A stretch of DNA of 64,000 nt from Candidatus Sabulitectum sp. (GCA_029938555.1 JAOZUR010000007.1:1581-65580); one strand, 5' to 3'; shown: positions 13,625 through 49,816, counted from the stretch's first letter. Numbers and translations are program-made. Notes: generated from the sequence alone by a model not told the origin.

Positions 13625-13633
13625 GAGACAATA

Positions 13634-13987
13634 ATGGAAATTTACAGAGAATTTAAGTTTGATGCAGCTCACAAGTTACCAAATCTGCCGGAAGGGCACA
13701 GATGCGGTAATCTTCATGGACATACATTTGTAGTTTACATACATATTCAAGGTAATGTGGGAGAGAAAACTGGTTGGGTAATGGATTACGGAGAAATTAA
13801 AAGTATCTGTGCTCCTGTTATTGATAAACTGGATCATCAGTATTTAAATGATGTTTCAGGGTTAGAGAATCCTACAAGTGAAGTTATAGCTCAATGGTTA
13901 TGGAACAGAATCAAACCTGTTCTTCCTGAGCTGTCTATGATTGAAATCAAGGAAACAGCTTCCACAGGGTGCAGGTTTTTAGGATGA
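13634..13987 (+). CDS. queD: 6-carboxy-5,6,7,8-tetrahydropterin synthase
   Basis: FKFDAAHKLPNLPEGHRCGNLHGHTF is the PTPS/QueD Zn-His motif. A GGAG lies 6 nt upstream of the ATG. Confidence 0.9.
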   Translation: MEIYREFKFDAAHKLPNLPEGHRCGNLHGHTFVVYIHIQGNVGEKTGWVMDYGEIKSICAPVIDKLDHQYLNDVSGLENPTSEVIAQWLWNRIKPVLPELSMIEIKETASTGCRFLG

Positions 13988-14778
13988 AAGACATACAAAG
14001 CAATCCTGATTTCAGGAATATTCCATTAAGAGAAGCTGGTATCAAAGACTTGAAGTATCCAATCACAATTCTTGATCGTGAGAATAGAGAACAAACCACA
14101 GTGGCTGATTTGTCCATGTCTGTGAATCTTCCTCATCATTTCAAAGGTACTCATATGAGTCGTTTTCTTGAAGTTCTCACAGATAGTGATTGCAGATTTA
14201 CAGGCAATACAATACCGTTGGTTCTTAAAAAACTTAAGGAATCTCTTGAGGCAGAGTCAGCAAGAATTCGAATAGAGTTTCCTTACTTTCTTACCAGAAA
14301 AGCACCTGTCACCGGAGCAGAAGCTAAAATGAGCTACCTTTGTGTTTTTACCGGAGAGTCAACTAATGTGAAAGATGACTTTATTCTTTCAGTAACCGTG
14401 CCTGTTAGTACCCTCTGTCCATGCAGCAAGGAAATCAGTGCAAGAGGGGCACATAATCAGCGTGGATATATAAAGATGGATGTACGCACGAAATTAAAAG
14501 CAGATGGCTCGTTTGAAATGTTATGGATTGAGGAACTGGTGGATATAGCCGAGATTTCAGCTTCCTCACCGGTTTATACCATCCTTAAACGGCCAGATGA
14601 GAAATTTGTAACAGAGCAATCTTATGATAACCCAGTTTTTGTTGAAGACATTGTAAGAAATGTAGCAGAAATTCTTCAGAATGATTTAAGAGTAACTCAG
14701 TTCACCGTAACAGCCGAAAATCACGAGAGCATTCATAATCATAATGCGTACGCTGTGGTTACTTGGCAGAGGCAGTAA
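13984..14778 (+). CDS. folE2: GTP cyclohydrolase I type 2 (GCYH-IB)
   Basis: KGTHMSRF...STLCPCSKEIS..GAHNQRG is characteristic of FolE2/MptA. The ATG at 13984 gives an ATGA overlap with the queD stop. Confidence 0.85.
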   Translation: MKDIQSNPDFRNIPLREAGIKDLKYPITILDRENREQTTVADLSMSVNLPHHFKGTHMSRFLEVLTDSDCRFTGNTIPLVLKKLKESLEAESARIRIEFPYFLTRKAPVTGAEAKMSYLCVFTGESTNVKDDFILSVTVPVSTLCPCSKEISARGAHNQRGYIKMDVRTKLKADGSFEMLWIEELVDIAEISASSPVYTILKRPDEKFVTEQSYDNPVFVEDIVRNVAEILQNDLRVTQFTVTAENHESIHNHNAYAVVTWQRQ

Positions 14779-14823
14779 ATATGGTTTGTTTCATCTGTAG
14801 TTTTTTACGAAAGGAGTATTATA

Positions 14824-15348
14824 TTGAATAGTATTTATATTCAGTACTACAAAAGTAAAATTGGTGAATTGATTCTTGGATCTTTTGACGACAAACTCTG
14901 TCTTCTTGATTTCAGGTATCGAAGAATGAGAGATACAGTTGATCGTAGGTTAAAAATAGGGTTGAATGCTGTTTTTGAGCAAAAAGACAATACTCTTCTT
15001 TGCACCACTAAACAACAACTTGATGAGTACTTATGCGGAGTTAGAAAGGAATTTGATATTCCTTTAAAAACAGTAGGATCTGATTTTCAGAAAAGTGTGT
15101 GGCAGGCTCTTTTGAAGGTTCCTTATGGTACCACCTCCACTTACTTGAAGTTAGCTGACGCCATTGGGAACAAAAATGCTGTTCGAGCAGTTGCTAATGC
15201 AAATGGAGCAAATTCTATAGGAATAATTATTCCATGTCACAGAATCATTGGAAGCAATGGAGATTTGGTTGGATATGGTGGGGGATTGCCAATCAAAAAA
15301 CGGCTTTTGAAATTAGAGAAACCAACCAACCAACAAGAACTTTTCTAA
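14824..15348 (+). CDS. ogt: methylated-DNA--protein-cysteine methyltransferase
   Basis: Active site IIIPCHRIIGSNG (PCHR) and the VPYGTTSTY helix-turn-helix region. TTG start. Confidence 0.85.
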   Translation: MNSIYIQYYKSKIGELILGSFDDKLCLLDFRYRRMRDTVDRRLKIGLNAVFEQKDNTLLCTTKQQLDEYLCGVRKEFDIPLKTVGSDFQKSVWQALLKVPYGTTSTYLKLADAIGNKNAVRAVANANGANSIGIIIPCHRIIGSNGDLVGYGGGLPIKKRLLKLEKPTNQQELF

Positions 15349-15743
15349 GACTTGTTGTATTCAGCCTCAACTTTAATGGAAATACCACCTCTAACACCGA
15401 AATCAGCTAAAACTCTGCACCATCTAGGTTGAATTGCTTCAAGAATATCATTTAGTATCATGTTTGTTACATGTTCGTGAAAAACGCCTTTATTTCTGTA
15501 TGAAAGATAGTATAGTTTTAAAGATTTTGATTCTACAATTTTTAAATCAGGTACATAACTGATTGTAATTTCTGCGAAATCAGGCTGACCGGTTTTAGGG
15601 CAAACGCAGGTGAATTCATCTGTAGATAGAGTTACAATGTAATCTCTTTCCGGGTTAAGATTCGGGAAAGCTTCTAATCCTTTAAATTCGTTATTGGAGC
15701 TACCCAAAAGAGATAAGCTTTCCATATTGGTTTGATTTGTCAT
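15345..15743 (-). CDS. queF: NADPH-dependent 7-cyano-7-deazaguanine reductase (unimodular type)
   Basis: EFTCVCPKTGQPDFAEITISYVP and the downstream HEH-type motif (FHEHV). The start overlaps the stop of the upstream kinase gene. Confidence 0.9.
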   Translation of the reverse strand: MTNQTNMESLSLLGSSNNEFKGLEAFPNLNPERDYIVTLSTDEFTCVCPKTGQPDFAEITISYVPDLKIVESKSLKLYYLSYRNKGVFHEHVTNMILNDILEAIQPRWCRVLADFGVRGGISIKVEAEYNKS

Positions 15744-27599: not shown

Positions 27600-27794
27600 T
27601 TGGGTAAAATTGGAACCACTGAGCTTATTTTGATTCTTGTGGTGCTTCTTTTACTGTTCGGAGCAAAAAGAATTCCTGATATTGCACGATCAGTAGGGAA
27701 ATCTTTGAATCAGTTTAAAATCGGTTTAAAAGAAATTGATATTGATGAGAAGAAATCAGAAGAGAAAAAAGAGCGGAACGAGGGTGATTCTTAA
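27600..27794 (+). CDS. tatA: twin-arginine translocase subunit TatA/E
   Basis: GKIGTTELILILVVLLLLFGAKRIPDIARSVGKSLNQFK. I place the start at the TTG at 27600, preceded by GGGGGG. The ORF-track start at 27537 lies inside the previous gene. Confidence 0.8.
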   Translation: MGKIGTTELILILVVLLLLFGAKRIPDIARSVGKSLNQFKIGLKEIDIDEKKSEEKKERNEGDS

Positions 27795-28396
27795 TGGCAA
27801 CTGTTAGCTACAGCGCAAAAGAAATCGATTGTAAAATAGTGTATGCAGGGCCTGGGTTATCTGGAAAAACTACAAATGTAAAACATATTCACGGTCAAGT
27901 TGATTCGGATTCAAGAGGGAAATTAATCTCTTTGGCCGCAGGCAATGATAGAACTTTGTTTTTTGATTTCTTGCCTCTTGATTCCGGCGAGATAAACGGT
28001 TTTAAAATCCGTCTTCACCTTTACAGTGTACCAGGCCAGGCCATGTACTCCGATAGCCGAAGATTGATACTTCAAGGTGTTGATGGTATAGTTTTCGTTG
28101 CAGATTCCCAGGAAACAAGAATGGATGCTAACATTGCCAGTTTGAGAGATCTTAAGGAAAACCTTCGTAGCCAAAGAAGGAAAGGTGTTAGCCTTGTTCT
28201 TCAATGCAATAAGAGGGATCTTCCTGATGCTATTCCTGTGGCAGAAATGGTTAAGGAACTTGGTTTATCTCGGGTTGCATGCATTGAGGCGGTTGCTTCT
28301 GATGGGAAAGGTGTTTTTGAAACTTTGCGCCGAGTGAGTCGTATGGTGATTGGACGGTTACATAAACAATTTGAAATACTGGAAGGACAAGCCTGA
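27794..28396 (+). CDS. MglA-family small Ras-like GTPase (paralog 1)
   Basis: KIVYAGPGLSGKTTN (G1), DRTLFFDFLP (intrinsic Arg region), LHLYSVPGQ (G3 with Ser/Thr in place of Asp, as in MglA), FVADSQ and CNKRDLPDA (G4). The TAATG junction with tatA is an overlap. Confidence 0.85.
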   Translation: MATVSYSAKEIDCKIVYAGPGLSGKTTNVKHIHGQVDSDSRGKLISLAAGNDRTLFFDFLPLDSGEINGFKIRLHLYSVPGQAMYSDSRRLILQGVDGIVFVADSQETRMDANIASLRDLKENLRSQRRKGVSLVLQCNKRDLPDAIPVAEMVKELGLSRVACIEAVASDGKGVFETLRRVSRMVIGRLHKQFEILEGQA

Positions 28397-29853
28397 TGTC
28401 TGATTCTTTCGTTGACTTGCTGCTTGTAAGATTAGGTAGAGAAGAAGAAAAAAAGAAAGTTATGAAACTTTTGATTACTAATTTGGATCTGTCTGTTAAA
28501 GAAGCTGAAGACGCTGTAAGTAACTCACCATCTGTGATTAAAGAAGCAGTATCAATGAACGAAGCTAGAATTATACAGAAGGATATGTACCCATATATTG
28601 ATCTTCTTCCAAGGCTCGAGGAGGAGCCTGTTAACGAGAGTTCAGACTCAATACCTCAACCTGCAGTTAATGAACCTGAGCTTTCTGAAACTGTGGTTCC
28701 GGAAGATGACATTGCCAATGAATTTGAAGAGCACGATGATGTTGATATTGATGTTGAAGTTGATAACAATATTGATGATGATGATGATGACGATCCCATT
28801 ATTATTACCTCTGCAAGTGAAGAGATAGTTTCTGCCACTAGATGTCATATATGTGGGAGAACTCCTTCAGATGATCAGCGTCTTGCTCCATGCCGCACCT
28901 GTGGAGACTTAACCTGTAGAGACTGTTTTGACAGGGTTGCACATGTATGCAATCACTGTGCTAATAAAGGTAAAACGGTAGACAAAGCTAATGAAGGAAT
29001 GGAATCTGAATCAGAAACCGGTTTGGAATTCGATACTGATGAAGTTACCCAAGATATTGTCAACAAAAAAAGTGGAGTTGTAAGAAGCATCTTGGTTGTT
29101 CTGTTTATTGTTGTTCTTGCTGGTTTGTTCTATTTTATTGATCCCATGGGTCTTTTTTCCGGTAATCAGCTTGCTGGTTTTTTCCAGTCCGAAGAAGTAT
29201 CCGCAGTGGTTGATACAACCTCTGTTGATTCTGTCTTTATTCAAGATTCTATTCTTTCAGATACTACAGCTACCCTTGAAATCACCGGTGATTCAACAGA
29301 GATAACACCGGATTCAATTTCTACTTCAGTTGACCTAGTTATTGATGTGGATCCCTATGGGGTTCTTTCGCTTTCTACTTCTGATAGTTTAATATCTGAA
29401 GAAGATGTGTTATCAATTAATTATCAAACCAGAAGACCAAGATCACTTTCCGAAGTAATTATTCCTTCAGAGGAAAGTGAGATTTTATTTGAGCAGGTCA
29501 GTGTAATTGCTTCAGCTATTCCTGTCATGGTAGACGATGGTGTATTTTTGGTTTATCAGGATACTACAAGTATACTTGTCCTTGCAATTTTGCATCCAGT
29601 TGAAATGGATACTCGAATGGAGCTAATGCGGAATGTGGCTGCTATGCTTATCCAGACTGAAATAGACCAGCTTGTAATTGTTTACAAGGAAGATCGTTTT
29701 CAGCAGGTAAATCATTTCAGTCTCGTTCAAGAGTCTTTTTCCAGTGTTCAAGGTATTTTGAATCCAAGGCAATTCCAGGGTTTTTTAAGTACCCGTGTAA
29801 ATTGCTGGGAATTAATCAGTGGCCCTGTAACCCAGTGGCTTTCTTCCGAATAG
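28396..29853 (+). CDS. hypothetical single-pass membrane protein: L7/L12-CTD-like N-terminus, poly-acidic linker, 8-Cys zinc-ribbon cluster, TM, ~235-aa extracytoplasmic domain
   Basis: The TGATG junction with the GTPase gene is an overlap. Residues 24-63 (LLITNLDLSVKEAEDAVSNSPSVIKEAVSMNEARIIQKDM) parallel the L7/L12 C-terminal TGLGLKEAKDLVE.AP..LKEGVSK.DAE.LKK.L. The cysteine spacing is C150-x2-C-x12-C-x2-C-x4-C-x2-C-x7-C-x2-C. The TM segment is SILVVLFIVVLAGLFYFI. Confidence 0.6.
   Translation: MSDSFVDLLLVRLGREEEKKKVMKLLITNLDLSVKEAEDAVSNSPSVIKEAVSMNEARIIQKDMYPYIDLLPRLEEEPVNESSDSIPQPAVNEPELSETVVPEDDIANEFEEHDDVDIDVEVDNNIDDDDDDDPIIITSASEEIVSATRCHICGRTPSDDQRLAPCRTCGDLTCRDCFDRVAHVCNHCANKGKTVDKANEGMESESETGLEFDTDEVTQDIVNKKSGVVRSILVVLFIVVLAGLFYFIDPMGLFSGNQLAGFFQSEEVSAVVDTTSVDSVFIQDSILSDTTATLEITGDSTEITPDSISTSVDLVIDVDPYGVLSLSTSDSLISEEDVLSINYQTRRPRSLSEVIIPSEESEILFEQVSVIASAIPVMVDDGVFLVYQDTTSILVLAILHPVEMDTRMELMRNVAAMLIQTEIDQLVIVYKEDRFQQVNHFSLVQESFSSVQGILNPRQFQGFLSTRVNCWELISGPVTQWLSSE
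28735..28794 (+). repeat. GAT/GAW-rich low-complexity coding tract (Asp-rich DDVDIDVEVDNNIDDDDDDD)
   Basis: Read directly from the sequence: gatgatgttgatattgatgttgaagttgataacaatattgatgatgatgatgatgacgat. Confidence 0.7.
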
Positions 29854-32079: not shown

Positions 32080-32948
32080 TTCTTGAATCATTCAGAGATG
32101 AACTGCTTTGGGGCAGAGGACTTTCTACTCTCACCGTGAAAGCTTATGTCTCACAGCTTAATGATTTTTGTTTAGTCACCGGTTCTCTTGGTTCTGATTT
32201 TAATATAACTACTTTACGAGAGTATTTAATGAAGAGAGCTTTAGGTGGTTTATCACCAAGATCCATATCGCGAATGATTAGCTGTTTTCATACATTTTCA
32301 AAATGGCTTGTGGAAACAGGAAGGTCAGAGATTGATCATTCTCAGTTACTTCAGCCACCTAAAGTACCGGTGAGTTTGCCAGGTTTTTTGGGTATCAGTG
32401 AGGTGAAAAGTGTTCTTGGTGCTTTTGACCTGTCCACAACCAAGGGGCTCCGTGACAGGGCTATTGTAGAGCTTCTTTACGGTGCAGGCCTAAGAGCGGC
32501 AGAAGCTGCATCTCTTCTGCAGGTAGATACTAACATTATTGGTAATTCTGTTAAAGTCATGGGCAAAGGACGCAGGGAACGAATTGTTCCAATACCAGTT
32601 GGTACCACTAAATATCTAGCTGAATGGATAAAAAAACGACCCGAATTTGCTTTTGATGCTGGTTCAGTTACTCTTTTTGTTAGCGTGAGAGGTCGAAAGC
32701 TTGACCCGAGAGATATAAGGCGTATTGTTTCAGCAGGCGTGGCCGGTGCTGCACGGGCGGCTGGAGCTACACCACATACATTCAGGCACAGTTTTGCCAC
32801 CCATCTTTTGAATAAAGGAGCTGACATTAGAACAGTTCAGGAACTACTTGGGCACGCAGGGATAGGAACAACACAGATATATACACACCTTTCTACAGAA
32901 AAATTGAAAGGTGTTTACATGCAGTCACACCCCAGGGGGAAAAAGTGA
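32058..32948 (+). CDS. tyrosine site-specific recombinase, XerC/XerD family
   Basis: LSTLTVKAYVSQL (SAM-like N-domain), RDRAIVELLYGAGLRAAE, and HTFRHSFATHLL.KGADIRTVQELLGH....TTQIYTH (R-H-R-H-Y catalytic set). The start is inferred to be the TTG at 32058; the ORF-track start at 31959 lies inside topA. Confidence 0.8.
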   Translation: MQKDDRLILESFRDELLWGRGLSTLTVKAYVSQLNDFCLVTGSLGSDFNITTLREYLMKRALGGLSPRSISRMISCFHTFSKWLVETGRSEIDHSQLLQPPKVPVSLPGFLGISEVKSVLGAFDLSTTKGLRDRAIVELLYGAGLRAAEAASLLQVDTNIIGNSVKVMGKGRRERIVPIPVGTTKYLAEWIKKRPEFAFDAGSVTLFVSVRGRKLDPRDIRRIVSAGVAGAARAAGATPHTFRHSFATHLLNKGADIRTVQELLGHAGIGTTQIYTHLSTEKLKGVYMQSHPRGKK

Positions 32949-35896
32949 AGATTAAAAGTGTATTTACAGCTGACAGGCTTGTGGCAATCGCTGCAGCTTT
33001 TGCTGCTTTTCTGGTTTATGTAATTACTCTTGCACCATCGGTGAGTTTCTGGGACAGTGGTGAATACATTACTTGTTCCTGGGTGGTTGGCATTCCGCAT
33101 CCGCCAGGAGTTCCTTTTTTCGTTCTTCTTGGAAGGGTAAGTACTCTCATTTTTGGTTTTATTCCATCAATAGCTGCGCGAGTTAACTTGATGTGCGCAC
33201 TTGCTGGAACTGTTACAATTGGTCTTGTTGCAAGGCTTATTCAAAGATGGAGTATAAGACTTAATTATGAGCCGTGGTTGTATAGGCCTGTATCGGTTGC
33301 TGGGGCTCTTATGGCTGCTTTCAGTTACACAGTATGGAGAAACAATAATGCCACGGAAACTTATGCCATGGCTGCACTTTTATCTCTTCTGATTTTATGG
33401 GTTTTTGATATGTGGATAGAAAAACGGCTGGAAGGAAAACCTGCAGGCAGGCAATTGCTTCTTACCGGATATCTTATGACACTTGCTATTGGTAATCACC
33501 TGAGTGCACTTATTGTAACTTTGCCTATTTTCTCAATGTATGTGCTTTATGCTTTCAGAAAAAAAGCTCATGAATGGAAATCACCTAGTTTTCTTGTGGT
33601 TCTTTTAAGTCTGATGATTCTTGCTTTCAGTATTCATCTGTATATGCCTCTTCGAGCTATTCAGAATCCTGAAATTAATGAAACAAATCCATCGGTATGG
33701 ACAGAATTTAAAGAGGCTCTTGAAAGAAAACAGTATGGTCAAGTTTCTATCTTCAGCAGAAAAGGACCATTCCAGGATCAGCTGGGGTTGTTTGCAGAAT
33801 ATCTATCCTGGCAGGTGGGAAGACCTGAAGCTTGGACAGGTTCCATGGGCACCGGCGGCGGCGTGGCGTGGGCTTTCCTCTGGATGGGTACTGCGATTCT
33901 GGCAGTGACAGGCCTTGTTGTTATAGGTATGAGGCGTAAAGATCTGCTTCTTATTATAGGGTTATCGTTTATTATGGCAAGTCTTGCGTTTGTGGTTTAT
34001 CTGAATTTTAAAACAGGTCCGGAAGGAACTGCACTTGGTGAAGTGCGAGAGCGAGATTATTTCTTTGGAGCTTCATTCATATTTTTCTCAATTTTATCAA
34101 TGATCGGATTAGGCTCTCTCTTTGCTTCTGCCAAGGGTAAATTCGCCAGGAAAGCCACATGGCTTATGCTTCTTTTTCCCATGATTCCGTTGACAATGAA
34201 CTGGCACCATTGTGACAGATCAGGTGATTACGTTGCAAGGGATTATGGAATAAACTTGCTACAATCGTGCCCTGAAAATGCAGTGATTATCACCAATGGA
34301 GATAATGACACATTCCCACTGTGGTTTGCGCAAGGTGTATTAGGCGTAAGAAGAGATGTTATTATCTCTAATCTCAGTCTTATGAATACAAAGTGGTATG
34401 TGCAGCAACTTCTTATTAAGGACCCAGAGTTGTTAAGTTATGCCGACTCTACAGTTTCCAGCATGCAACCTGTGTTTATCTGGGGACCAAACTTTTTTCA
34501 TGTGTCTATTGATGGTTTACCGGAAACCAAACAAATTGACAGGCAAATACTTGACGATACTTTCAATAACCAGTGGCCATGGGCCTATACTGAAGGTAAC
34601 ATGAGTATTCCTGTGCCTTCAATGGGAAGAGGAAGTCAAGGGTCTGTACCTATGCAGGATCTTCTTCTTATTGATATGATAAGTCGCAAAGCCATTCATG
34701 GCAGGGAAATAATGATTGCCGGTACAGTTTCCGGGGCTAATAGATTGTATGTTGAAGATTATCTTCAGATGCAGGGAATTTCTTTCCAAGTTATGGATGA
34801 ACCTGTTCGCATGGAAGTGAGCACGGAATTGGGTTGGCCTTTGGCAGAGCAATTCTTAACCACAGGTTTAACTGATCCAGGAGTTTTTAAAGATGATCAA
34901 GCGATTCAGATTGCCAGAAACTATGTAAGTGCTTATAACAGATTGGCATATCAATACATGGCCGAAGGTAATACCGAAATGGTAGAAATCTGTTTAAACC
35001 GCTCAGAGGAACTTTTTTCTGCAATGCCAGTTGAATGGCTTTCAATTATGCCCAGTTTTGTCCTTTTAAAAGCTCGATTTACCCATGGAAGTCAAGGAGC
35101 TGAAGCTGCAATTGCTTATGTTGCAGAAGCAACAACATATATGGATAGCATGGCAGTTGTTACGAATAATCAAACTGTGGCAGCAGCAGCAGCGCAATTA
35201 ACAGCTGTTGCAAGAGAGTTTGAGCAGGAAGTAGCTTTTGACGGTGTAATTGATATTATCAGTGATGGATCACCAGCCCAAGAGTGGATGAGAATAGAAA
35301 AAGATCTTTCTTTTGGCAATTATATAGCAGCAAGACGAGTTCTTCTTGAACTGCATGAACAGTGGCCTAATGAGCATGAAGCTCTTTTAAGTCTTATGGA
35401 TGCAACTGTTAACCGTTATACTATATTCAGCCCTGTTAACAGTGGATTAAGCATAATCGATTCAGCTCTTGCATCAATTTTTAACCACACTAATCAATCC
35501 AGTGCTACAATTGAGTGGAATGAAGATGTTTCAGCGGCTTCAGTTATTGTTGAAATGGTGGGGCTTGCCTCTCGCGGGGGAGTTATGTCTGCTGTTTCCC
35601 TTGGGAATACCATTGCTTCTGTTATAGAATCTGATTCAGAGTTTGAGGCACAGATTCTTCTAGATTTATGTCAAGAGTTCGTTACATACCCAGAACAGGC
35701 AGAAGAGTTATCCCTTTGGTTCCTTTTATCAACAGGAACATTTTCACCAGAGGTTAGAGCTCTTAGTCTTGCAGATAATCAATTCTCAGGTTTTTGTTAT
35801 GCAATTTTAGTTAATGATCTTGGAATAGACGAAGAGAATGCGATTTTGCTTTCTAAGAGCCGATCAAGTCTTGCAGAATTGCTGGAGGAAAAATGA
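32945..35896 (+). CDS. DUF2723 (TMEM260-like, GT-C-type) large membrane protein with ~500-aa C-terminal soluble region
   Basis: The N-terminal loop FWDSGEYITCSWVVGIPHPPGVPFFVLLGR is the hallmark DUF2723 motif. About 11 TM segments follow. The C-terminal half is helical and repeat-like. GTGA-coupled start. Confidence 0.7.
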   Translation: MKIKSVFTADRLVAIAAAFAAFLVYVITLAPSVSFWDSGEYITCSWVVGIPHPPGVPFFVLLGRVSTLIFGFIPSIAARVNLMCALAGTVTIGLVARLIQRWSIRLNYEPWLYRPVSVAGALMAAFSYTVWRNNNATETYAMAALLSLLILWVFDMWIEKRLEGKPAGRQLLLTGYLMTLAIGNHLSALIVTLPIFSMYVLYAFRKKAHEWKSPSFLVVLLSLMILAFSIHLYMPLRAIQNPEINETNPSVWTEFKEALERKQYGQVSIFSRKGPFQDQLGLFAEYLSWQVGRPEAWTGSMGTGGGVAWAFLWMGTAILAVTGLVVIGMRRKDLLLIIGLSFIMASLAFVVYLNFKTGPEGTALGEVRERDYFFGASFIFFSILSMIGLGSLFASAKGKFARKATWLMLLFPMIPLTMNWHHCDRSGDYVARDYGINLLQSCPENAVIITNGDNDTFPLWFAQGVLGVRRDVIISNLSLMNTKWYVQQLLIKDPELLSYADSTVSSMQPVFIWGPNFFHVSIDGLPETKQIDRQILDDTFNNQWPWAYTEGNMSIPVPSMGRGSQGSVPMQDLLLIDMISRKAIHGREIMIAGTVSGANRLYVEDYLQMQGISFQVMDEPVRMEVSTELGWPLAEQFLTTGLTDPGVFKDDQAIQIARNYVSAYNRLAYQYMAEGNTEMVEICLNRSEELFSAMPVEWLSIMPSFVLLKARFTHGSQGAEAAIAYVAEATTYMDSMAVVTNNQTVAAAAAQLTAVAREFEQEVAFDGVIDIISDGSPAQEWMRIEKDLSFGNYIAARRVLLELHEQWPNEHEALLSLMDATVNRYTIFSPVNSGLSIIDSALASIFNHTNQSSATIEWNEDVSAASVIVEMVGLASRGGVMSAVSLGNTIASVIESDSEFEAQILLDLCQEFVTYPEQAEELSLWFLLSTGTFSPEVRALSLADNQFSGFCYAILVNDLGIDEENAILLSKSRSSLAELLEEK

Positions 35897-37759: not shown

Positions 37760-38350
37760 ATGGGGAGAAGAATGCACAGGTCAGGTAAAGAGGTTGCCTA
37801 CAAGATTGTCTATTACGGTCCTGGCCTATCAGGAAAAACTACGAATCTTAGGGGTATCCGAGATATTATTGCACCAGAGAACAGAGGTAGGCTTGTTACT
37901 CTTTGTACTAGGTGTGAAAGAACAGTATTTTTTGATTTTCTTCCAGTGAACTTTGCAAAAATAGATGATGTTCGAGTTAAACTTCATCTGTATAGCGTTC
38001 CTGGGCAGGCATATTATGCTCTTAGCAGAAGAGTTATTCTTGATGGCATTGACGGAGTTGTTTTTGTGGCCGATAGTCAGAAAGAAAGAGCCGAGGCAAA
38101 TCTAAGCACTCTTGATGATCTTGAGCATAATTTAAAAAGTTATGGTCTAGATATGTCAATGCTTCCTATTGTTCTTCAGTTTAACAAAAGAGATCTGCCA
38201 GGGGTTATGTCAACATCAAGGATGAACGCTGATCTTAACAAGTTCGGATGGCCAACTGTTGAATCTGTGGCTATCGGCGGAACAGGTCCTGCTGAAACCT
38301 TGAAAATTATTGCTACCCAGATAGCCAAGCGCCATGTGCGCACGGGCTAA
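37760..38350 (+). CDS. MglA-family small Ras-like GTPase (paralog 2)
   Basis: KIVYYGPGLSGKTTNL, ERTVFFDFLP, LHLYSVPGQ, FVADSQ and FNKRDLPG. An alternative start is the ATG at 37772, which has GGAG upstream. Confidence 0.8.
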   Translation: MGRRMHRSGKEVAYKIVYYGPGLSGKTTNLRGIRDIIAPENRGRLVTLCTRCERTVFFDFLPVNFAKIDDVRVKLHLYSVPGQAYYALSRRVILDGIDGVVFVADSQKERAEANLSTLDDLEHNLKSYGLDMSMLPIVLQFNKRDLPGVMSTSRMNADLNKFGWPTVESVAIGGTGPAETLKIIATQIAKRHVRTG

Positions 38351-40475
38351 ATCTAGATCGTATATAAAAGAAATCGTTCTTCTGTTTTTGCTTCTAGCAG
38401 GAGGATTTCTTTTCCGTACGGTTTTTGCTCAGGGGGTAATGCCCCCGCCAGCGCGTATGCAGGGAGAAACAACACAGGCATACCGTTATACAAAAATGAT
38501 TTCAGATGGAAGATCAATTCCCCATGTAGATTCGCTTGTTAATCATCCTGTTGGTTTAAATACAGGAGAGAATTCGATATTTGAAGAATACATTGCTGGT
38601 GGTATTCACTCTGTGATCAAGGGAGACTTAAGCAATTTCCTTCTTTTATTCTGCCGTTTCTTTCCGTTGTTAATATTACCTATTCTGTATTTTTGGATGC
38701 TTAACTCTGGTTTTTCTTTACCTGAATCAGCCACCGGAGCAGGTTTGTATGCTGTTTTTCTTCCAGCTTTGCTCAGAACAAGAGGGGAAAGCTTTTACCG
38801 AGAAACTGTAGCTCTACCATTTATTATTTTATGTGTCTCCATGATTGATATGGCAGTTAGAAGTGATAAGAAAAATGGTTTAAAACTATCAATTGGTGCT
38901 GCAATTGCTTTGTTTGTATCTCTTGCATCATGGAAAGTTACAGGTTTTGTATCTTTCTTTCTGTTTGTTTGGCTTGCTTTTAAAAGACCAGGTATTCGAA
39001 TAGTTCTTCCTTTGGCTGCAAGTCAGTTACTTGCGTCTGTTGTTCTTTCACACATGCGTCATGATGTTGCTATTCTTTCTCCAGCTTCATTTATGGCAAT
39101 TGCAGCAGTTGTTGTAACTTTGTTTGCCCATAAATTGATTCCTTGGTTTGGGTTATTAGTTTCATTGGTTGCAGGATTTCTTTTTGGTTCTTCATCCAGC
39201 GGTCATGTGGTCTCGGTAATTACAGCAAAACTGAGATTTTTCTTCAGTCATCCAGAAAACCCAGCATTATTATCAGGGGATACAAGGCTTTTTTGGGTTA
39301 GTGGTTACACCAGCCCAGCTTTAGGGCAGATAATTCTGCTCTTTGGAATTGCGTTATTGATTTCCGTCTCTGGGTGGAAACCTTTCTTAAAAAAAGCTCA
39401 CGGTTCTCTTATGTTTTTTCTTGTGCCACTTACTCTTGCTGGTTATCTCTTTTTTGATAGATTGCATGTTTTTCTCGCAATAAGCCTTATTCCTCTTGTG
39501 GTGGCAGGGGCCCGGGGAAGGAAATGGGTTTTACCAATCTTATTGACTGTGTTTGGAGTTCAATCCATGTATGCTCCGGAAATTGCCATGGCTCTTTCCA
39601 GAACAGGATTAGAATATTCAAGTTCTTCTTCTTTGCTGAATGACCATGAGTTAGATGATCTTCTTTTGTGGGCTGAAGTTAACAATGGCAATACGCTTTC
39701 TTTTTGGCATATATCAGGATTGCTTTCAGCATACGCTGATATGCCTGTTGTTACCCATACATTCTTCGAGAATGCTGAAAACAGAAAAACTATCATTAAT
39801 TTTGCTGAAAGAATTTACGGTACCGAGGCTGAAATGATATCTTTTATGGAAGAATCACAGGCAGAATACCTAGTTTATCAAGCTGATTTTATTTTTGATT
39901 CAACCCACCAAGGGCTTTTATACCTTGCAGCTTTACAAGAAATACCTGATGGGTCATTGGCAATCAGGCTTCATTATTATCCAAGTTCTCTTGAAAGACT
40001 TAAATTAGTATGGCAGGGTGCATCTATCAGGGTGTTTCAACTTGATGGTATTCCGACAGATAACCCAAGATTTCCTCTGTGGGAGTCAAGATATGCTTCA
40101 TTTATTTATAATGCTGAAGCGGCATCTTCTATTATTAACATGCCGGTGGAAACGGGTATTCTTTTTGCAGACCAGGGCATTCTGACTTCTAACCATCAAA
40201 AACTTTCAGCTGCTCTTTTGCTTTTCTCTAAACATCCAGATTCTGTTCCAGTAGAAGCAGTTACTACTTTACTGCAAGAACTCTTAATGTTAAATCTTGA
40301 CGGTCAGTATTCTATTGAAGATCTTGAAGAAGATTTTGTTACCTATTTAGATTCATGGGGGCCAGACCCGCAGATTCGATTAGATCTTGTTCGTCTTTTA
40401 CGGGCAAACAATCTTAATCAAAGAGCAGATTACCACATGGAGATTATTCAAACCATGGGAAGAAGTGGAATATGA
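38334..40475 (+). CDS. large polytopic membrane protein, GT-C-like with STT3/PglB-like loop motifs (degenerate)
   Basis: 713 aa with ~12 TM segments and a ~290-aa C-terminal soluble domain. The first external loop AYRYTKMISDGRSIPHVDSLVNHPVG parallels the STT3/AglB pattern (F/Y)-x-YR...G....D....YP-x-G. After the last TM, LSFWHISGLL sits where WWDYG normally is. It overlaps the GTPase gene by 17 nt. Confidence 0.45.
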   Translation: MCARAKSRSYIKEIVLLFLLLAGGFLFRTVFAQGVMPPPARMQGETTQAYRYTKMISDGRSIPHVDSLVNHPVGLNTGENSIFEEYIAGGIHSVIKGDLSNFLLLFCRFFPLLILPILYFWMLNSGFSLPESATGAGLYAVFLPALLRTRGESFYRETVALPFIILCVSMIDMAVRSDKKNGLKLSIGAAIALFVSLASWKVTGFVSFFLFVWLAFKRPGIRIVLPLAASQLLASVVLSHMRHDVAILSPASFMAIAAVVVTLFAHKLIPWFGLLVSLVAGFLFGSSSSGHVVSVITAKLRFFFSHPENPALLSGDTRLFWVSGYTSPALGQIILLFGIALLISVSGWKPFLKKAHGSLMFFLVPLTLAGYLFFDRLHVFLAISLIPLVVAGARGRKWVLPILLTVFGVQSMYAPEIAMALSRTGLEYSSSSSLLNDHELDDLLLWAEVNNGNTLSFWHISGLLSAYADMPVVTHTFFENAENRKTIINFAERIYGTEAEMISFMEESQAEYLVYQADFIFDSTHQGLLYLAALQEIPDGSLAIRLHYYPSSLERLKLVWQGASIRVFQLDGIPTDNPRFPLWESRYASFIYNAEAASSIINMPVETGILFADQGILTSNHQKLSAALLLFSKHPDSVPVEAVTTLLQELLMLNLDGQYSIEDLEEDFVTYLDSWGPDPQIRLDLVRLLRANNLNQRADYHMEIIQTMGRSGI

Positions 40476-41279: not shown

Positions 41280-41870
41280 ATGATTCTTTTACTGTTATTT
41301 CTTTTGTCAGAACCCCAATCGGATCAATCCATGTCCATGTGGGAACTTAGGGCAGGTTTGGTGCAAGAGACCACCCCAATGGCTTTGGGGGCTTCGCTTT
41401 ATGTAATTGCAAATTCTTCAGAAACTTCTTATTTATCAGATGAAGCGATTATTCGTTTTATAGATGGTGGCAATAGGTCAATGATTGTTCCACTGACCTC
41501 TTTTTTGGTCTCTGATGGAAAAACGAAATTGGCTGAAATTTATTGGCGGTTACAAGGGTATGACCTTCCCGCCACTAGAAGTGATCTTCTTGATGCTCTT
41601 GCTTGGTTTGGTCGACATGAATTGTATACAGTCATGGCATTAAAACCAGAAATTCCCGAAGATATGATTGGTGATATGTTTTCAGAGCAATGTGCTGCTG
41701 TTTGTCATCTTGGATGGATGACCACCAGGCAAGATGGTCTGTTTCACGGTGATGAACTTGTTTCCTACGCAGATATTAGAATTCTTTCTAGCTTCTTGTA
41801 TATTGAAAACCCACAGGCAAGTTTTTTGTCAGTTTCTTCTCTTGAAAATCTGTCTTTGTTGACTCCATGA
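41280..41870 (+). CDS. hypothetical protein with hydrophobic N-terminus
   Basis: 196-aa ORF in the tightly packed operon, with an N-terminal MILLLLFLL. No family recognised. Confidence 0.4.
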   Translation: MILLLLFLLSEPQSDQSMSMWELRAGLVQETTPMALGASLYVIANSSETSYLSDEAIIRFIDGGNRSMIVPLTSFLVSDGKTKLAEIYWRLQGYDLPATRSDLLDALAWFGRHELYTVMALKPEIPEDMIGDMFSEQCAAVCHLGWMTTRQDGLFHGDELVSYADIRILSSFLYIENPQASFLSVSSLENLSLLTP

Positions 41871-42499
41871 GAAAATTAAACGAACCCCAGCAAAGGCATC
41901 TTGAGCAATTGACTAGAGCGGTTTCAATGGTGAAGAGAGCCCGAGAGGAATTACCTATTTTGCCTGCCTTAGTTTCATGGGTACGCATTATTCTTCTTCC
42001 TGTATGCGTGTGGGCCGGTTGGAACGGAAAATATGTTTTTATGTTTTGGTTATCTCTTACTGCGGCTTCAAGCGATTATTTTGATGGTTTGCTAGCAAGA
42101 CAATTGAAGAAATCAAGTACTCCTGGAAAAACACTTGATCTTCTGGCAGATAAGTTTTTTCTTTCTGTTATGCTTATTTTTCTCACTCGATTAGGTGTGC
42201 TTAGTTTGTATTCAGCCATGATTCCAGCTTGGTATCATATCGGAGTGGTTTTTGCTCTTTTAATTGTATCATGGAGTATAAAGATTCCTGTAGTTGTAAT
42301 AACTACCAGCGAAAGACTTGTTATAATTTTAAGTTATATTCTTGTTCTTACTGCCACCGGGTCACTTGCTTATCCAGATAAAAGTATTTTCTTCAAGTTA
42401 ACTTGGGCAGCACAAATATTGATTCCAATAGCGGTACTTCTGGGGGTTATTAGTTATTTCAGATTTTCTAGAAGATTGATACAGAGGTATATGAAATGA
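41867..42499 (+). CDS. CDP-alcohol phosphatidyltransferase family protein
   Basis: Exact family motif D-x2-DG-x2-AR-x8-G-x3-D-x3-D, seen as SDYFDGLLARQLKKSSTPGKTLDLLADK. About 6 TM helices. Confidence 0.8.
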   Translation: MRKLNEPQQRHLEQLTRAVSMVKRAREELPILPALVSWVRIILLPVCVWAGWNGKYVFMFWLSLTAASSDYFDGLLARQLKKSSTPGKTLDLLADKFFLSVMLIFLTRLGVLSLYSAMIPAWYHIGVVFALLIVSWSIKIPVVVITTSERLVIILSYILVLTATGSLAYPDKSIFFKLTWAAQILIPIAVLLGVISYFRFSRRLIQRYMK

Positions 42500-43170: not shown

Positions 43171-44057
43171 AGTTTATCAAGAAATTTTTTACAAAAAGAC
43201 GAGAAGCAAAAGTTTTATCCAGCTGGAATGATTTTCGATTTCCATCTGATATACTAAAACCAAATTCTGTAGGTGTTTTTGCTTCAGATGATATTTCTGA
43301 AGTCTGGGCTGCTGTATATATGGCAAAAGCTTTGCAGGATGCTTATCCAGGGATTCCTGTTCATTTTACTGCACATGAAAGCGTTAATGAACTTGCCGGG
43401 TTTCTTCCATGGACACCAGAGATGCATACTTACTCAACTGATTCAGGTGTAATAGAACCAGAATTTCCCGAGAATGTACTGGTTTTCACATCTTTACCTG
43501 GGGTAGATTTTGTCAGATTTATTGAAAGAAATAATCCTATTGCGTGTGTTTCCTCTCAAGATCATACGGCTGTGAATATTCGTATAAGAACATCTACAGA
43601 AACAATTCCAATAAGTGTTCATGGAATTATGAATGTTTTGAAAATGAAAATAGACGAGAATTGGAAACCATCTGTTCCAAGGGTTCTTTCAGAGAAGGCA
43701 TCTGCTATTCTTTCTCCAGTTTCCCACAGAACATTGCCATATATTTTAGCCACAGAAGCTGCTTCTGCAATTTTTGAAAAAAAACGCGCTGAAGTTCCTC
43801 TTAAAATCGTGGTTGTTGATGGTAAAAGTAGCCATATTCCACCAGATACAAGTGTTGGAATAATTGCTGCTATGGTGGCAGGAGCTTCTGCTGTTGCTAC
43901 TACAAGGCGAGATTTATGGATTCATGCAAGAGCCATGGGTGTGCCGGTTATTGGTCTTGATAGAAAGCATACATTCACCGGTTGGGGCTCTGAGCCTGCC
44001 ACTGGCGATACTCAGTTTCTTGAACAATGGGCAACTCTTATAAGGCGCGGGTGGTAA
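43167..44057 (+). CDS. hypothetical protein, weak resemblance to the C-terminal half of GT9 (heptosyltransferase-like) enzymes
   Basis: GIIAAMVAGASAVATTRRDLWIHARAMGVPVIGL resembles the GT9 pattern ...l..a.l.ig.DSG..HlA.A.G.P.v.l. GTGA-coupled start. Confidence 0.3.
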   Translation: MKFIKKFFTKRREAKVLSSWNDFRFPSDILKPNSVGVFASDDISEVWAAVYMAKALQDAYPGIPVHFTAHESVNELAGFLPWTPEMHTYSTDSGVIEPEFPENVLVFTSLPGVDFVRFIERNNPIACVSSQDHTAVNIRIRTSTETIPISVHGIMNVLKMKIDENWKPSVPRVLSEKASAILSPVSHRTLPYILATEAASAIFEKKRAEVPLKIVVVDGKSSHIPPDTSVGIIAAMVAGASAVATTRRDLWIHARAMGVPVIGLDRKHTFTGWGSEPATGDTQFLEQWATLIRRGW

Positions 44058-45504: not shown

Positions 45505-45589
45505 TACATCTAAGACACTTATATATTGCCTGAATCCATATTTCTGTTTATATTTATACTGGAAAAACTGAGAATTTCGAATTGGCATT

Positions 45590-45598
45590 TGATATAAT
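45590..45598 (+). promoter_or_regulatory. candidate extended -10 promoter element (TGaTATAAT)
   Basis: ttTGaTATAAT lies in the 150-nt AT-rich gap upstream of the 45655 gene. There is no good -35. Confidence 0.25.
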
Positions 45599-45654
45599 AA
45601 TAGTCTTATTATTTCTCTAAATTAGTTATCTTTAATTACATACAGAATGGTCTT

Positions 45655-49701: not shown

Positions 49702-49816
49702 ATCGAAAATGTTAACTACTGCTATTGGCTTTGATTTGGATAGCTGTAAGAATATTTACAAAGTAGTTTATTAGAATTTTATACTATTTGATGAAATTAG
49801 AAAACAGTGAGGATTT

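What the first reader, a model, noticed from the sequence alone, without database searches (positions are those of the whole stretch)
27600..29853. tatA - MglA-like GTPase - zinc-ribbon membrane protein: an MglB-less MglA module translationally coupled to a Tat component
The three genes are joined by TAATG and TGATG junctions, which implies co-translation. The GTPase has all the MglA hallmarks, including PGQ with Ser in place of the Ras Asp and the DRTLFFDF intrinsic-Arg segment. The usual partner gene is mglB (roadblock/LC7), and I see no roadblock-like ORF anywhere in the window. The downstream gene is instead a 485-aa single-pass membrane protein of novel architecture. Coupling of a polarity or motility-type GTPase to tatA and to a membrane-spanning partner is not a described arrangement as far as I know.
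Basis: partly seen in the sequence, partly recalled or inferred. Interest (0 to 1): 0.7.

Follow-up and report, generated by a model that had tools for sequence, protein, structure and literature searches.

The report
Orphan MglA GTPase with membrane partner
In an uncultured bacterial phylum (Fermentibacteria), a genuine MglA polarity GTPase has no MglB gene nearby and is always followed by a phylum-specific membrane protein with a ribosomal-L12-like domain and a zinc finger, which is a plausible but unproven new partner, whereas the link to tatA looks incidental.

Summary
tatA (27600-27794), a true group-1 MglA (27794-28396) and a 485-aa single-pass membrane protein (28396-29853) are joined by TAATG and TGATG overlaps. 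No roadblock/MglB gene occurs in the 64-kb window. The window comes from Candidatus Fermentibacteria.

The triad is present in every Fermentibacterota species locus recovered (42). None has mglB within 10 kb, whereas the nearest outgroup MglAs (Gemmatimonadota and others) have mglB adjacent.

Two things weaken the "module" inference. A colinear block of about 20 kb, from hpf to the gene after a second MglA paralog, is frozen across the phylum. Also, 24 of 41 same-strand gene pairs in the window overlap stop and start.

The partner family is confined to this phylum. It has:
- an L7/L12 C-terminal-domain homolog
- an acidic disordered linker
- an 8-Cys FYVE-like zinc finger
- one transmembrane helix
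- a Ser/Thr-rich linker
- an unmatched periplasmic alpha/beta domain, which is not a roadblock fold

My best reading is an orphan MglA wired to a lineage-specific trans-envelope effector or regulator, analogous to but not homologous with Myxococcus GltJ. tatA is a bystander. Orphan MglAs are already known, so this is a new variant of a known kind. Whether mglB is absent from the whole genome could not be tested.

The parts
27600..27794 (+). tatA (64 aa from TTG 27600; the longest ORF starts at 27537)
   Evidence: Pfam TatA_B_E 9.5e-18. TIGR01411 and NF011430 score above their cut-offs. One transmembrane segment at aa 4-22. Lies directly upstream of mglA1 in 41 of 41 Fermentibacterota loci that have sequence there.
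27794..28396 (+). mglA1: group-1 MglA Ras-like GTPase, 200 aa, with no adjacent mglB
   Evidence: E 3.2e-63 to 3t12_A and 1.7e-62 to 6h17_A. G21, R53, T54, S78-VPGQ82 and NKRD are invariant in 41 species. Orthologs within the phylum are 73-95% identical; outgroups are at most 59%.
28396..29853 (+). Partner: 485-aa single-pass membrane protein, a Fermentibacteria-specific family
   Evidence: 134 homologs, all from Fermentibacteria where a source names them. A profile search of 1.84 billion representatives finds full-length members only in this family. Directly downstream of mglA1 in 40 of 40 loci.
28408..28611 (+). Partner aa 5-72: L7/L12 C-terminal-domain-like alpha/beta domain, the most conserved part
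   Evidence: Pfam Ribosomal_L12 E 1.5e-5, 25.7 bits against a cut-off of 25.9. pLDDT above 93. Foldseek match to 1ctf with TM 0.80, rmsd 1.6 and 28% identity. hhalign probability 95.6%, E 1.2e-8.
28618..28836 (+). Partner aa 75-147: acidic disordered linker of variable length
   Evidence: 28 Asp+Glu and no Lys or Arg in 72 aa. pLDDT below 50. Length and sequence vary across the family.
28837..28971 (+). Partner aa 148-192: 8-Cys FYVE-like zinc finger (C-x2-C-x12-C-x2-C-x4-C-x2-C-x7-C-x2-C)
   Evidence: All 8 Cys, plus H151 and H183, are invariant in 79 sequences. pLDDT 84-92. Foldseek matches to FYVE domains 1hyi and 2yw8, probability 0.99.
29074..29139 (+). Partner aa 227-248: the single transmembrane helix; Lys/Arg on the N-terminal side implies N-in, C-out
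   Evidence: Hydropathy peak 2.67 at aa 227-245. AlphaFold helix at 227-248.
29143..29400 (+). Partner aa 250-335: periplasmic Ser/Thr/Asp-rich disordered linker
   Evidence: 26 Ser+Thr, 15 Asp+Glu and no Lys or Arg in 85 aa (aa 251-335 counted). pLDDT below 50.
29401..29850 (+). Partner aa 336-485: periplasmic alpha-beta-beta-alpha-beta-beta-alpha-alpha domain with an invariant HPE motif; fold unassigned
   Evidence: pLDDT 95-98. No convincing PDB match. hhalign against MglB gives probability 0.2%.
37760..38350 (+). mglA2: second MglA paralog (196 aa) in the same conserved block
   Evidence: 47% identical to MglA1. Has the same G21, R53 and SVPGQ hallmarks. Present in 27 or more species.
38334..40475 (+). 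713-aa GT-C-fold glycosyltransferase-like membrane protein that overlaps the end of mglA2
   Evidence: Family restricted to Fermentibacteria. AlphaFold pLDDT 90.8. Foldseek matches to STT3, AglB, PglB and DPY19, E 4e-14, TM 0.62.

Best explanation
mglA1 is the Fermentibacterota ortholog of the canonical polarity GTPase MglA. It has been separated from mglB.

Proposed mechanism: its working partner is the gene that overlaps its stop codon, a phylum-specific trans-envelope protein. MglA1-GTP docks on the partner's conserved cytoplasmic region, which consists of an L7/L12-CTD-like domain, an acidic flexible linker and a FYVE-like zinc finger. Through the single transmembrane helix, this docking positions or switches the periplasmic alpha/beta domain. 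The nucleotide state of the GTPase is thereby coupled to a process in the cell envelope. That process is most plausibly polar placement of type IV pili or of envelope and glycan biogenesis in these rod-shaped, flagella-less diderm cells. The closest working analogy is M. xanthus GltJ. tatA is an ordinary Tat component that simply sits in the same frozen gene string.

Shown here:
- gene identities
- domain architecture
- restriction of the partner family to this phylum
- invariant catalytic residues
- local absence of mglB
- strict adjacency

Inferred, not shown:
- the physical MglA1-partner interaction
- which cytoplasmic element binds
- the cellular process
For: - MglA identity and an intact catalytic set: G21, R53, T54 and Q82 are invariant in 41 species, so the GTPase presumably still cycles.
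- The partner lies immediately downstream in 40 of 40 species loci, with a 1-nt stop/start overlap in 25 of 37.
- The partner family exists only where this mglA1 arrangement exists.
- No mglB lies within 10 kb in any Fermentibacterota locus, whereas mglB abuts mglA in the closest outgroups and the same tools detect it there.
- The cytoplasmic part of the partner is its most conserved region: mean distance 0.415 against 1.30 for the periplasmic domain.
- The cytoplasmic part is built from folds that contact GTPases in other systems. L12 CTD contacts translational GTPases, and FYVE-type fingers occur in Rab effectors (background knowledge). The folds themselves were shown.
- Precedent: GltJ is a single-pass membrane protein with a cytoplasmic zinc finger and a flexible linker, and it binds MglA-GTP (PMC11135422).
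- The second paralog, mglA2, is likewise overlapped by a phylum-specific membrane protein.
- MglA1 rates covary with both partner domains, r = 0.60 and 0.57.
- Members of the phylum (Hyd24-12) are described as rods, diderm, without flagella and with type IV pilus genes (PMC5030696).
Against: - The whole block of about 20 kb, running hpf-hprK-ptsHI-...-tatA-mglA1-partner-topA-xerC-...-mglA2, is colinear in all 42 species. Adjacency is therefore no stronger for the partner than for topA.
- Stop/start overlaps are the genomic norm here.
- Rate covariation is not specific: hprK correlates equally well, at 0.62 with mglA1 and 0.80 with the partner's cytoplasmic region.
- No interaction prediction could be run.
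- There is no sequence homology to GltJ or to any solved MglA effector.
- The L12 residues that bind translation factors (V66, I69, K70, R73) are not conserved in the partner.
Confidence: 0.4

Rival explanations
1. Frozen synteny only. tatA, mglA1 and the 485-aa gene are functionally independent neighbours in a long, densely packed, phylum-wide housekeeping gene string. MglA1 works with a canonical MglB and other polarity proteins encoded elsewhere, and it controls type IV pilus polarity as in Thermus and Myxococcus.
For: - The block of about 20 kb is colinear in all 42 species and includes unrelated genes such as hpf, PTS genes, topA, xerC and hslVU.
- 24 of 41 gene pairs overlap stop and start.
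- G21, R53 and Q82 are retained, which suggests a GAP-dependent cycle.
- Only about 75 kb of a genome of about 2.5 Mb was visible (L033).
- Rate covariation is not specific.
Against: - The partner is a lineage-specific invention placed exactly at the stop codon of mglA1, and it never occurs without mglA1.
- Its conserved region is cytoplasmic.
- mglB is adjacent to mglA in 390 of 449 cases generally (PMC4316618) and in the nearest outgroups, so its absence next to both paralogs is a real change.
Confidence: 0.3
2. MglB replacement. The partner's L7/L12-CTD-like domain, or that domain together with the zinc finger, acts as the GAP or co-GAP for MglA1. It would take over the role of the lost roadblock protein, much as ribosomal L12 CTD stimulates translational GTPases.
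For: - The domain is a true L12-CTD homolog.
- It lies next to a GTPase that keeps its catalytic Arg and Gln but has no local MglB.
- Equivalents of L12 K65, E82 and A83 are conserved: K19 in 92%, E36 in 70% and A37 in 100% of sequences.
- Both paralogs share the phylum-specific S78 and A83 switch-II change, SVPGQA against TVPGQV in outgroups.
Against: - The main L12 factor-binding residues (V66, I69, K70, R73) are not conserved.
- MglA is not a translational GTPase.
- There is no interaction or activity data.
- An mglB may exist elsewhere in the genome.
Confidence: 0.1
3. A true tatA-mglA functional unit. MglA1 regulates or localises the Tat translocase, or TatA is a membrane receptor for MglA1, and the partner is a third component.
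For: tatA lies directly upstream in 41 of 41 loci, with gaps of -14 to +14 nt.
Against: - The same holds for every gene pair in the frozen block.
- No outgroup MglA locus has tatA.
- tatA-mglA1 rate covariation is -0.21.
- The junction type varies between species (-14, -1, 0, +6, +7, +14).
- tatA looks entirely ordinary.
Confidence: 0.05
4. The partner has nothing to do with MglA. It is a membrane-tethered L12-CTD mimic that recruits translational GTPases or ribosomes to the membrane, or it is a zinc-finger anti-sigma-like transmembrane signalling protein.
For: L12-CTD homology. A cytoplasmic zinc finger, one transmembrane helix and a periplasmic domain is a common architecture for transmembrane signalling proteins (background knowledge).
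Against: - The L12 factor-binding residues are not kept.
- The finger is FYVE-like, not an HxxxCxxC anti-sigma motif (sequence).
- No sigma factor gene lies in the block.
Confidence: 0.05

Closest known systems
M. xanthus GltJ-MglA switch (Agl-Glt gliding machinery; PMC11135422)
   Same: GltJ is a single-pass inner-membrane protein with a cytoplasmic N-terminal region made of a zinc finger, a long flexible linker and a second small globular domain. That is followed by a transmembrane helix and a periplasmic domain. It acts as an MglA-GTP effector.
   Different: No sequence homology was found, and the profile gives no PDB hit to GltJ ZnR 7Z0K. The finger here is an 8-Cys FYVE-like type and lies C-terminal to the linker. 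The second domain is L12-CTD-like rather than GYF. GltJ's zinc finger recruits MglB, which is absent locally here. No Agl-Glt genes lie in the block. Interaction with MglA is untested.
Orphan MglA family members: Bdellovibrio bacteriovorus MglA, M. xanthus SofG, and 59 of 449 MglA homologs (PMC3983030, PMC4316618)
   Same: These are group-1 MglAs encoded without an adjacent mglB. In Bdellovibrio, MglA works through other partners (TPR protein Bd2492, RomR) to control type IV pili at one pole.
   Different: Bdellovibrio MglA has Ser at position 21 and is presumed locked in the GTP state. The Fermentibacterota paralogs keep G21, R53 and Q82. Bdellovibrio keeps the dnaX-recR-mglA context, whereas here mglA sits between tatA and a novel membrane protein gene.
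Canonical mglBA operon (M. xanthus, T. thermophilus; also Gemmatimonadota loci L008 and L009)
   Same: The GTPase is about 58-60% identical and has all the MglA motifs.
   Different: There is no roadblock GAP gene adjacent. S78 replaces T78. There is a conserved C-terminal tail, RLHRQFExLEGRA.
Ribosomal protein L7/L12 C-terminal domain
   Same: The partner's N-terminal domain is homologous in sequence and in predicted fold. L12 CTD is a GTPase-contacting module.
   Different: The partner has no L12 N-terminal dimerisation and L10-binding domain. The factor-binding residues are only partly kept. The domain is fused to a membrane protein.

Membership tests
MglA family, group 1 (Ras-like GTPase) | P-loop GxxxxGKT with Gly at position 21 | tested here: met
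   GPGLSGKT in the window and in 41 of 41 MglA1 orthologs.
MglA family, group 1 (Ras-like GTPase) | Intrinsic arginine finger next to the G2 threonine (R53-T54) | tested here: met
   D/E-R-T-L-F-F-D-F is invariant. The criterion comes from PMC4316618.
MglA family, group 1 (Ras-like GTPase) | G3 motif T/S-V-P-G-Q instead of DxxGQ | tested here: met
   The motif here is SVPGQ. Ser is the only substitution tolerated in M. xanthus (PMC3000849)..
MglA family, group 1 (Ras-like GTPase) | Full-length similarity to structurally characterised MglA | tested here: met
   E 3.2e-63 (3t12_A) and 1.7e-62 (6h17_A), covering aa 1-191.
MglA family, group 1 (Ras-like GTPase) | Cognate mglB within four genes (typical, seen in 390 of 449 cases, but not defining) | tested here: not met
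   No Robl_LC7/MglB in the window or within 10 kb in 42 species. This makes it an 'orphan' MglA.
MglA family, group 1 (Ras-like GTPase) | Absence of mglB from the whole genome | not testable with these tools
   Only the window and loci of about 20 kb were accessible. The complete chromosome OY970370.1 exists but could not be read in full.
TatA/TatE | Family HMM above the curated cut-off; N-terminal transmembrane helix followed by an amphipathic helix | tested here: met
   Pfam 63.6 bits against 21; TIGR01411 58.4 bits against 53.9. Transmembrane segment at aa 4-22.
TatA/TatE | A tatC partner in the genome | not tested
   No TatC was seen among the window proteins scanned.
MglB / Roadblock-LC7 (considered for the 485-aa partner) | Roadblock domain | tested here: not met
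   No Pfam Robl_LC7 hit. hhalign of the C-terminal domain against MglB gives probability 0.2%. No MglB structure appears among the 50 Foldseek matches listed.
GltJ-type MglA effector (ZnR-linker-GYF, transmembrane helix, periplasmic domain) | GYF domain and homologous ZnR | tested here: not met
   No GYF hit. No PDB sequence match to 7Z0K or 7Z3C with the family profile.
GltJ-type MglA effector (ZnR-linker-GYF, transmembrane helix, periplasmic domain) | Cytoplasmic zinc finger plus disordered linker, a single transmembrane helix and a periplasmic domain | tested here: met
   AlphaFold model and hydropathy. This is a resemblance in architecture only.
GltJ-type MglA effector (ZnR-linker-GYF, transmembrane helix, periplasmic domain) | GTP-dependent binding of MglA | not testable with these tools
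Ribosomal L7/L12 C-terminal domain (partner aa 5-72) | Sequence and fold homology to the L12 CTD | tested here: met
   hhalign 95.6%. Foldseek TM 0.80 to 1ctf. The Pfam score is 0.2 bits below the gathering cut-off.
Ribosomal L7/L12 C-terminal domain (partner aa 5-72) | Conserved translation-factor-binding residues (K65, V66, I69, K70, R73, L80, E82; recalled from the literature) | tested here: inconclusive
   Equivalents of K65, E82 and A83 are conserved. V66, I69, K70 and R73 are not.
FYVE zinc finger (partner aa 148-192) | Eight zinc ligands in a cross-brace fold | tested here: met
   8 invariant Cys. Foldseek matches to 1hyi and 2yw8, probability 0.99.
FYVE zinc finger (partner aa 148-192) | PI3P-binding motifs WxxD, R(R/K)HHCR and RVC (recalled) | tested here: not met
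   The sequence reads TRCHICGR...LAPCRTCG...HVCNHC. There is no basic RRHH motif and no Pfam FYVE hit.

The most novel reading that the evidence does not exclude
Fermentibacterota have dispensed with the roadblock GAP MglB. In its place they use a membrane-anchored homolog of the ribosomal L7/L12 C-terminal domain, with its FYVE-like finger, as the GTPase-activating or GTPase-recruiting factor for MglA. That would be a new class of bacterial small-GTPase regulator derived from the ribosomal stalk. It would tie the MglA cycle directly to a trans-envelope protein.
Probability: 0.1. Interest if true: 0.8.

Novelty: new variant of a known kind. Interest (0 to 1): 0.45.

Why it matters
MglA is the best-studied bacterial Ras-like polarity switch. 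Nearly everything known about it comes from Myxococcus, Thermus and Bdellovibrio.

This locus gives a whole phylum in which two catalytically intact MglA paralogs lack a neighbouring MglB. Each is instead followed by a phylum-specific membrane protein. One has an unprecedented combination of an L12-CTD-like domain and a FYVE-like finger. The other is an STT3/DPY19-like glycosyltransferase.

If the pairing is functional, it would show a second, independent way of coupling MglA to the cell envelope, the first being GltJ. It would also offer a candidate non-roadblock regulator, and it would suggest a link between polarity GTPases and envelope or protein glycosylation.

If the pairing is not functional, the locus is a useful warning. 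In lineages with frozen gene order and pervasive stop/start overlaps, conserved adjacency and 'translational coupling' carry little functional information.

Tried and rejected
- **Complex prediction.** An earlier mixed alignment misaligned partner rows onto MglA and was discarded.
- **Hidden roadblock domain.** hhalign of the partner's C-terminal domain against MglB gave probability 0.2%. Foldseek gave no MglB hit. Rejected.
- **Sequence homology to GltJ or any solved protein.** The family profile against PDB gave only noise.
- **Partner relatives outside the phylum.** The exhaustive profile search found only local hits. The 8-Cys finger matched unrelated double-zinc-ribbon/NosD-type proteins, and there were L12-like repeat proteins. 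Their gene contexts show no GTPase.
- **Operon boundaries.** The promoter and terminator scan gave counts close to the shuffled expectation, and no terminator-like site was evident in the short gaps flanking the triad. It was uninformative.
- **Rate covariation.** MglA1 correlates with the partner (0.60 and 0.57) but equally with hprK (0.62), so the signal is not specific.
- **Genome-wide MglB status.** The Hyd24-12 paper has no supplementary text held. No tool allowed me to read a whole Fermentibacterota genome.
- **Anti-sigma reading of the partner.** Rejected: there is no ZAS motif and no sigma factor gene in the block.
Full report
**1. The observation**

The three ORFs exist as described. 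tatA is an 85-codon longest ORF (27537-27794). Its TatA-like sequence begins at TTG 27600 (MGKIGTTELILIL...), preceded by a G-rich Shine-Dalgarno-like run. It scores above curated cut-offs for TatA/E.

Its TAA stop overlaps the ATG of a 200-aa GTPase (TAATG at 27792-27796). The GTPase TGA stop overlaps the ATG of a 485-aa ORF (TGATG at 28394-28398).

The GTPase is a genuine group-1 MglA. phmmer against PDB gives 3.2e-63 to T. thermophilus MglA and 1.7e-62 to M. xanthus MglA over the full length. The next-best hits are Arf proteins at 1e-7. It has the P-loop GPGLSGKT, the intrinsic Arg-Thr pair (DRTLFFDF), SVPGQ in place of DxxGQ, and NKRD. Ser at position 78 is the one substitution of Thr78 that M. 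xanthus tolerates (PMC3000849).

**2. Origin and distribution**

Homologs of all three proteins that carry a source name come from Candidatus Fermentibacteria (Sabulitectum, Aegiribacteria, Fermentibacteraceae; formerly Hyd24-12).

MglA1 orthologs in the phylum are 73-95% identical. Identity then drops abruptly to 59% or less for Gemmatimonadota, Planctomycetota and others.

The 485-aa partner has 134 homologs at 30-59% identity, all full length. A filter-free profile search of 1.84 billion representative proteins found full-length members only in this family. Beyond it there were only local hits. Some were to the zinc finger, in unrelated double-zinc-ribbon/beta-helix proteins. Others were to L12-like repeat proteins.

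**3. Anatomy of the partner**

An AlphaFold model built on 79 sequences gives, in order:

| Residues | Feature | Evidence |
|---|---|---|
| 5-72 | beta-alpha-alpha-beta-alpha-beta domain, pLDDT above 93 | Foldseek: best matches are L7/L12 C-terminal domains (1ctf: TM 0.80, rmsd 1.6 A, 28% identity) |
| about 75-147 | Disordered acidic linker, variable in length | 28 Asp+Glu, no Lys or Arg |
| 148-192 | Eight-Cys cross-brace finger | Matches FYVE domains 1hyi and 2yw8, probability 0.99 |
| 227-248 | One transmembrane helix | |
| about 250-335 | Disordered Ser/Thr/Asp-rich stretch | |
| 336-485 | Very confident (pLDDT 95-98) alpha-beta-beta-alpha-beta-beta-alpha-alpha domain | No convincing PDB counterpart |

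The L12 relationship also holds at the sequence level. The Pfam Ribosomal_L12 score is 25.7 bits against a cut-off of 25.9. hhalign gives probability 95.6%, E 1.2e-8.

Of the L12 residues known from the literature to bind translational GTPases (recalled, not tested here), the equivalents of K65, E82 and A83 are conserved. V66, I69, K70 and R73 are not.

The finger lacks the FYVE PI3P-binding basic motif. Positive charges lie before the transmembrane helix, and the N-terminal half is large, Cys-rich and without a signal peptide. That implies an N-in, C-out topology, so the C-terminal domain is periplasmic.

The C-terminal domain is not a hidden MglB (hhalign probability 0.2%).

The most conserved parts of the family are the L12-like domain and the finger. 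Mean distance is 0.415 for the cytoplasmic part and 1.30 for the periplasmic part.

**4. Is mglB missing?**

Within the window, Pfam scans of the small and unassigned ORFs gave no roadblock domain. An MglB HMM run with filters off over all six-frame ORFs also gave none.

Precomputed Pfam labels for 10 kb on either side in five other genomes show none. The HMM finds none in any of 42 Fermentibacterota species loci.

The method does detect MglB where it exists. The closest outgroup MglAs (Longimicrobiales and a JGI contig) have a Robl_LC7 gene immediately upstream, in a dnaX-ybaB-recR-mglB-mglA context. One of these was confirmed as MglB at 7e-24 against the M. xanthus structure. In total, 20 of 38 outgroup loci scored positive even with my weak HMM. 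Several of the other 18 have an unassigned 110-175-aa ORF just upstream of mglA that may be a divergent MglB.

So local absence is solid. Genome-wide absence is untested. Only about 3% of a genome of about 2.5 Mb was visible, and the complete chromosome OY970370.1 could not be read beyond one locus.

The catalytic residues G21, R53 and Q82 are invariant in 41 MglA1 and 27 MglA2 sequences. This differs from Bdellovibrio, where loss of mglB goes with G21S (PMC3983030). It suggests that a GAP of some kind is still needed.

**5. How much does the adjacency mean?**

tatA lies directly upstream of mglA1 in 41 of 41 loci, with gaps of -14 to +14 nt. The partner lies directly downstream in 40 of 40 loci, with a 1-nt overlap in 25 of 37. 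No outgroup locus has either gene next to mglA.

The test is weak here, however. The whole string is colinear in every species:

hpf-hprK-ptsH-ptsI-NTP transferase-GT4-GT4-heptaprenyl-synthase-I-like-DUF4321-tatA-mglA1-partner-topA-xerC-TMEM260-like-hslVU-mglA2-713-aa gene

Only hslVU is missing, in one subclade. In addition, 24 of 41 same-strand pairs in the window have 4-nt or 1-nt stop/start overlaps, including xerC/TMEM260-like/hslV.

A rate-covariation analysis on 31 species gave mglA1-partner correlations of 0.60 and 0.57, but also mglA1-hprK at 0.62. The mglA1-tatA correlation was -0.21. This is weak, non-specific support for the partner and none for tatA.

**6. A second module**

About 9.4 kb downstream lies a second MglA paralog (37760-38350). 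It is 47% identical to MglA1 and has the same hallmarks, including the phylum-specific SVPGQA signature. Its end is overlapped by a 713-aa gene.

That protein is also restricted to the phylum. It has a GT-C glycosyltransferase fold: AlphaFold pLDDT 90.8, and Foldseek matches to STT3, AglB, PglB and DPY19 at E 4e-14 and TM 0.62.

So both MglA paralogs are followed by lineage-specific membrane proteins. The block also has an envelope and glycosylation flavour, with an NTP transferase, two GT4 enzymes, and a TMEM260-like GT-C.

**7. Comparison with what is known**

Orphan MglAs are documented. In one survey, 59 of 449 MglA homologs were not within four genes of an MglB. SofG and Bdellovibrio MglA are the studied cases (PMC4316618, PMC3983030).

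A membrane effector with a cytoplasmic zinc finger and a flexible linker that binds MglA-GTP is known. GltJ binds MglA-GTP through its linker and recruits MglB through its zinc finger (PMC11135422). The protein here resembles GltJ in layout only. It has no GYF domain, a different finger and no detectable sequence homology.

The combination of an L12-CTD-like domain and a FYVE-like finger on a single-pass membrane protein appears to be undescribed, and it is confined to this phylum.

Members of the phylum are described as rod-shaped diderms without flagella but with type IV pilus genes (PMC5030696). That is a plausible output for an MglA system.

**8. Verdict**

The most likely reading (about 0.4) is an orphan MglA paired with a phylum-specific trans-envelope effector or regulator, with tatA as a bystander.

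The main rival (about 0.3) is that all three are merely neighbours in a frozen gene string, and a canonical MglB is encoded elsewhere.

The most novel reading not excluded (about 0.1) is that the membrane-anchored L12-like domain has replaced MglB as the regulator of the GTPase.

This is a new variant of a known kind and a good hypothesis generator. The decisive computations, a whole-genome MglB search and a multimer prediction, could not be run here.

Noticed in passing
window 37760-40475: A second MglA paralog (196 aa, 47% identical to MglA1) has its 3' end overlapped by a 713-aa, phylum-restricted GT-C-fold protein. That protein resembles the STT3, AglB and PglB oligosaccharyltransferases and the DPY19 C-mannosyltransferase (pLDDT 90.8, Foldseek E 4e-14). 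A GTPase gene overlapped by a protein-glycosyltransferase-like gene is itself an unusual pairing.
   Followed up: partly
window 20153-40475; loci L010-L051: A same-strand block of about 20 kb, from hpf to the GT-C gene, is colinear in all 42 Fermentibacterota species representatives recovered. Only hslVU is missing, in one subclade (L002, L033, L036-L038). This is unusually rigid gene order for a whole phylum.
   Followed up: yes
window 28025-28039 and 37991-38005 (G3 motifs of mglA1 and mglA2); loci L010-L051: Both MglA paralogs carry SVPGQA in all Fermentibacterota sequences, whereas nearly all outgroup MglAs have TVPGQV. This is a phylum signature in switch II shared by both paralogs. MglA1 also has a conserved C-terminal tail, RLHRQFExLEGRA.
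   Followed up: partly
window 32945-35896 and 29143-29400: A 983-aa TMEM260-like protein, a putative protein O-mannosyltransferase with about 9 transmembrane segments and a TPR-like C-terminus, lies three genes downstream of the partner. The partner's periplasmic linker is Ser/Thr-rich (26 of 85 residues), so it could be a glycosylation substrate. This is speculation only.
   Followed up: no
window 44000-50000: A low-GC stretch (0.32-0.35 against about 0.39-0.40 elsewhere) carries a cytidylyltransferase, a CDP-glycerol glycerophosphotransferase-like gene, an NTP transferase and several unassigned ORFs. It may be a horizontally acquired surface-glycopolymer island in a diderm organism.
   Followed up: no
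window 12339-15743: A queuosine and 7-deazaguanine gene cluster: queC, queD (PTPS), folE2 and queF on the opposite strand. An O6-methylguanine-DNA methyltransferase gene is inserted between them.
   Followed up: no
P0139-P0149, L090: The partner's 8-Cys finger, with the preceding 'NEDETKK..RCHVCG' stretch, recurs at profile E 1e-6 to 1e-4 in unrelated proteins. These have N-terminal double zinc ribbons and C-terminal TPR or NosD/beta-helix regions. This looks like an undescribed mobile zinc-finger module. No GTPase lies in the one context examined.
   Followed up: partly
L052, L053, L056, L058, L060, L062, L074, L080, L089: Outgroup MglA loci (Terriglobia, Bacteriovoracaceae and others) in which my three-sequence MglB HMM found nothing still have an unassigned 110-175-aa ORF just upstream of mglA. 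These may be divergent MglB-like genes. The count of 20 of 38 loci with mglB is therefore a lower bound.
   Followed up: no
L008 6586-7233 and window 41867-42499: In the Longimicrobiales outgroup, mglB-mglA is followed directly by a CDP-alcohol phosphatidyltransferase gene. In the window, a CDP-alcohol phosphatidyltransferase gene lies four genes downstream of mglA2. This may be a remnant of an ancestral mglBA context around mglA2, or it may be coincidence.
   Followed up: no
window 55725-56276 (minus strand): A 4Fe-4S ferredoxin-domain protein with an N-terminal hydrophobic segment has a weak match (E 0.0016, below the cut-off) to the T9SS C-terminal sorting domain. The match is probably spurious. 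It is the only T9SS-related signal seen in the window.
   Followed up: no
L050 (Ca. Sabulitectum silens MJAN01000006.1): Many genes of the conserved block appear as several ORF fragments in this record, including mglA1, whose match is truncated at HMM position 165. This suggests frameshift errors in the assembly rather than biology.
   Followed up: no
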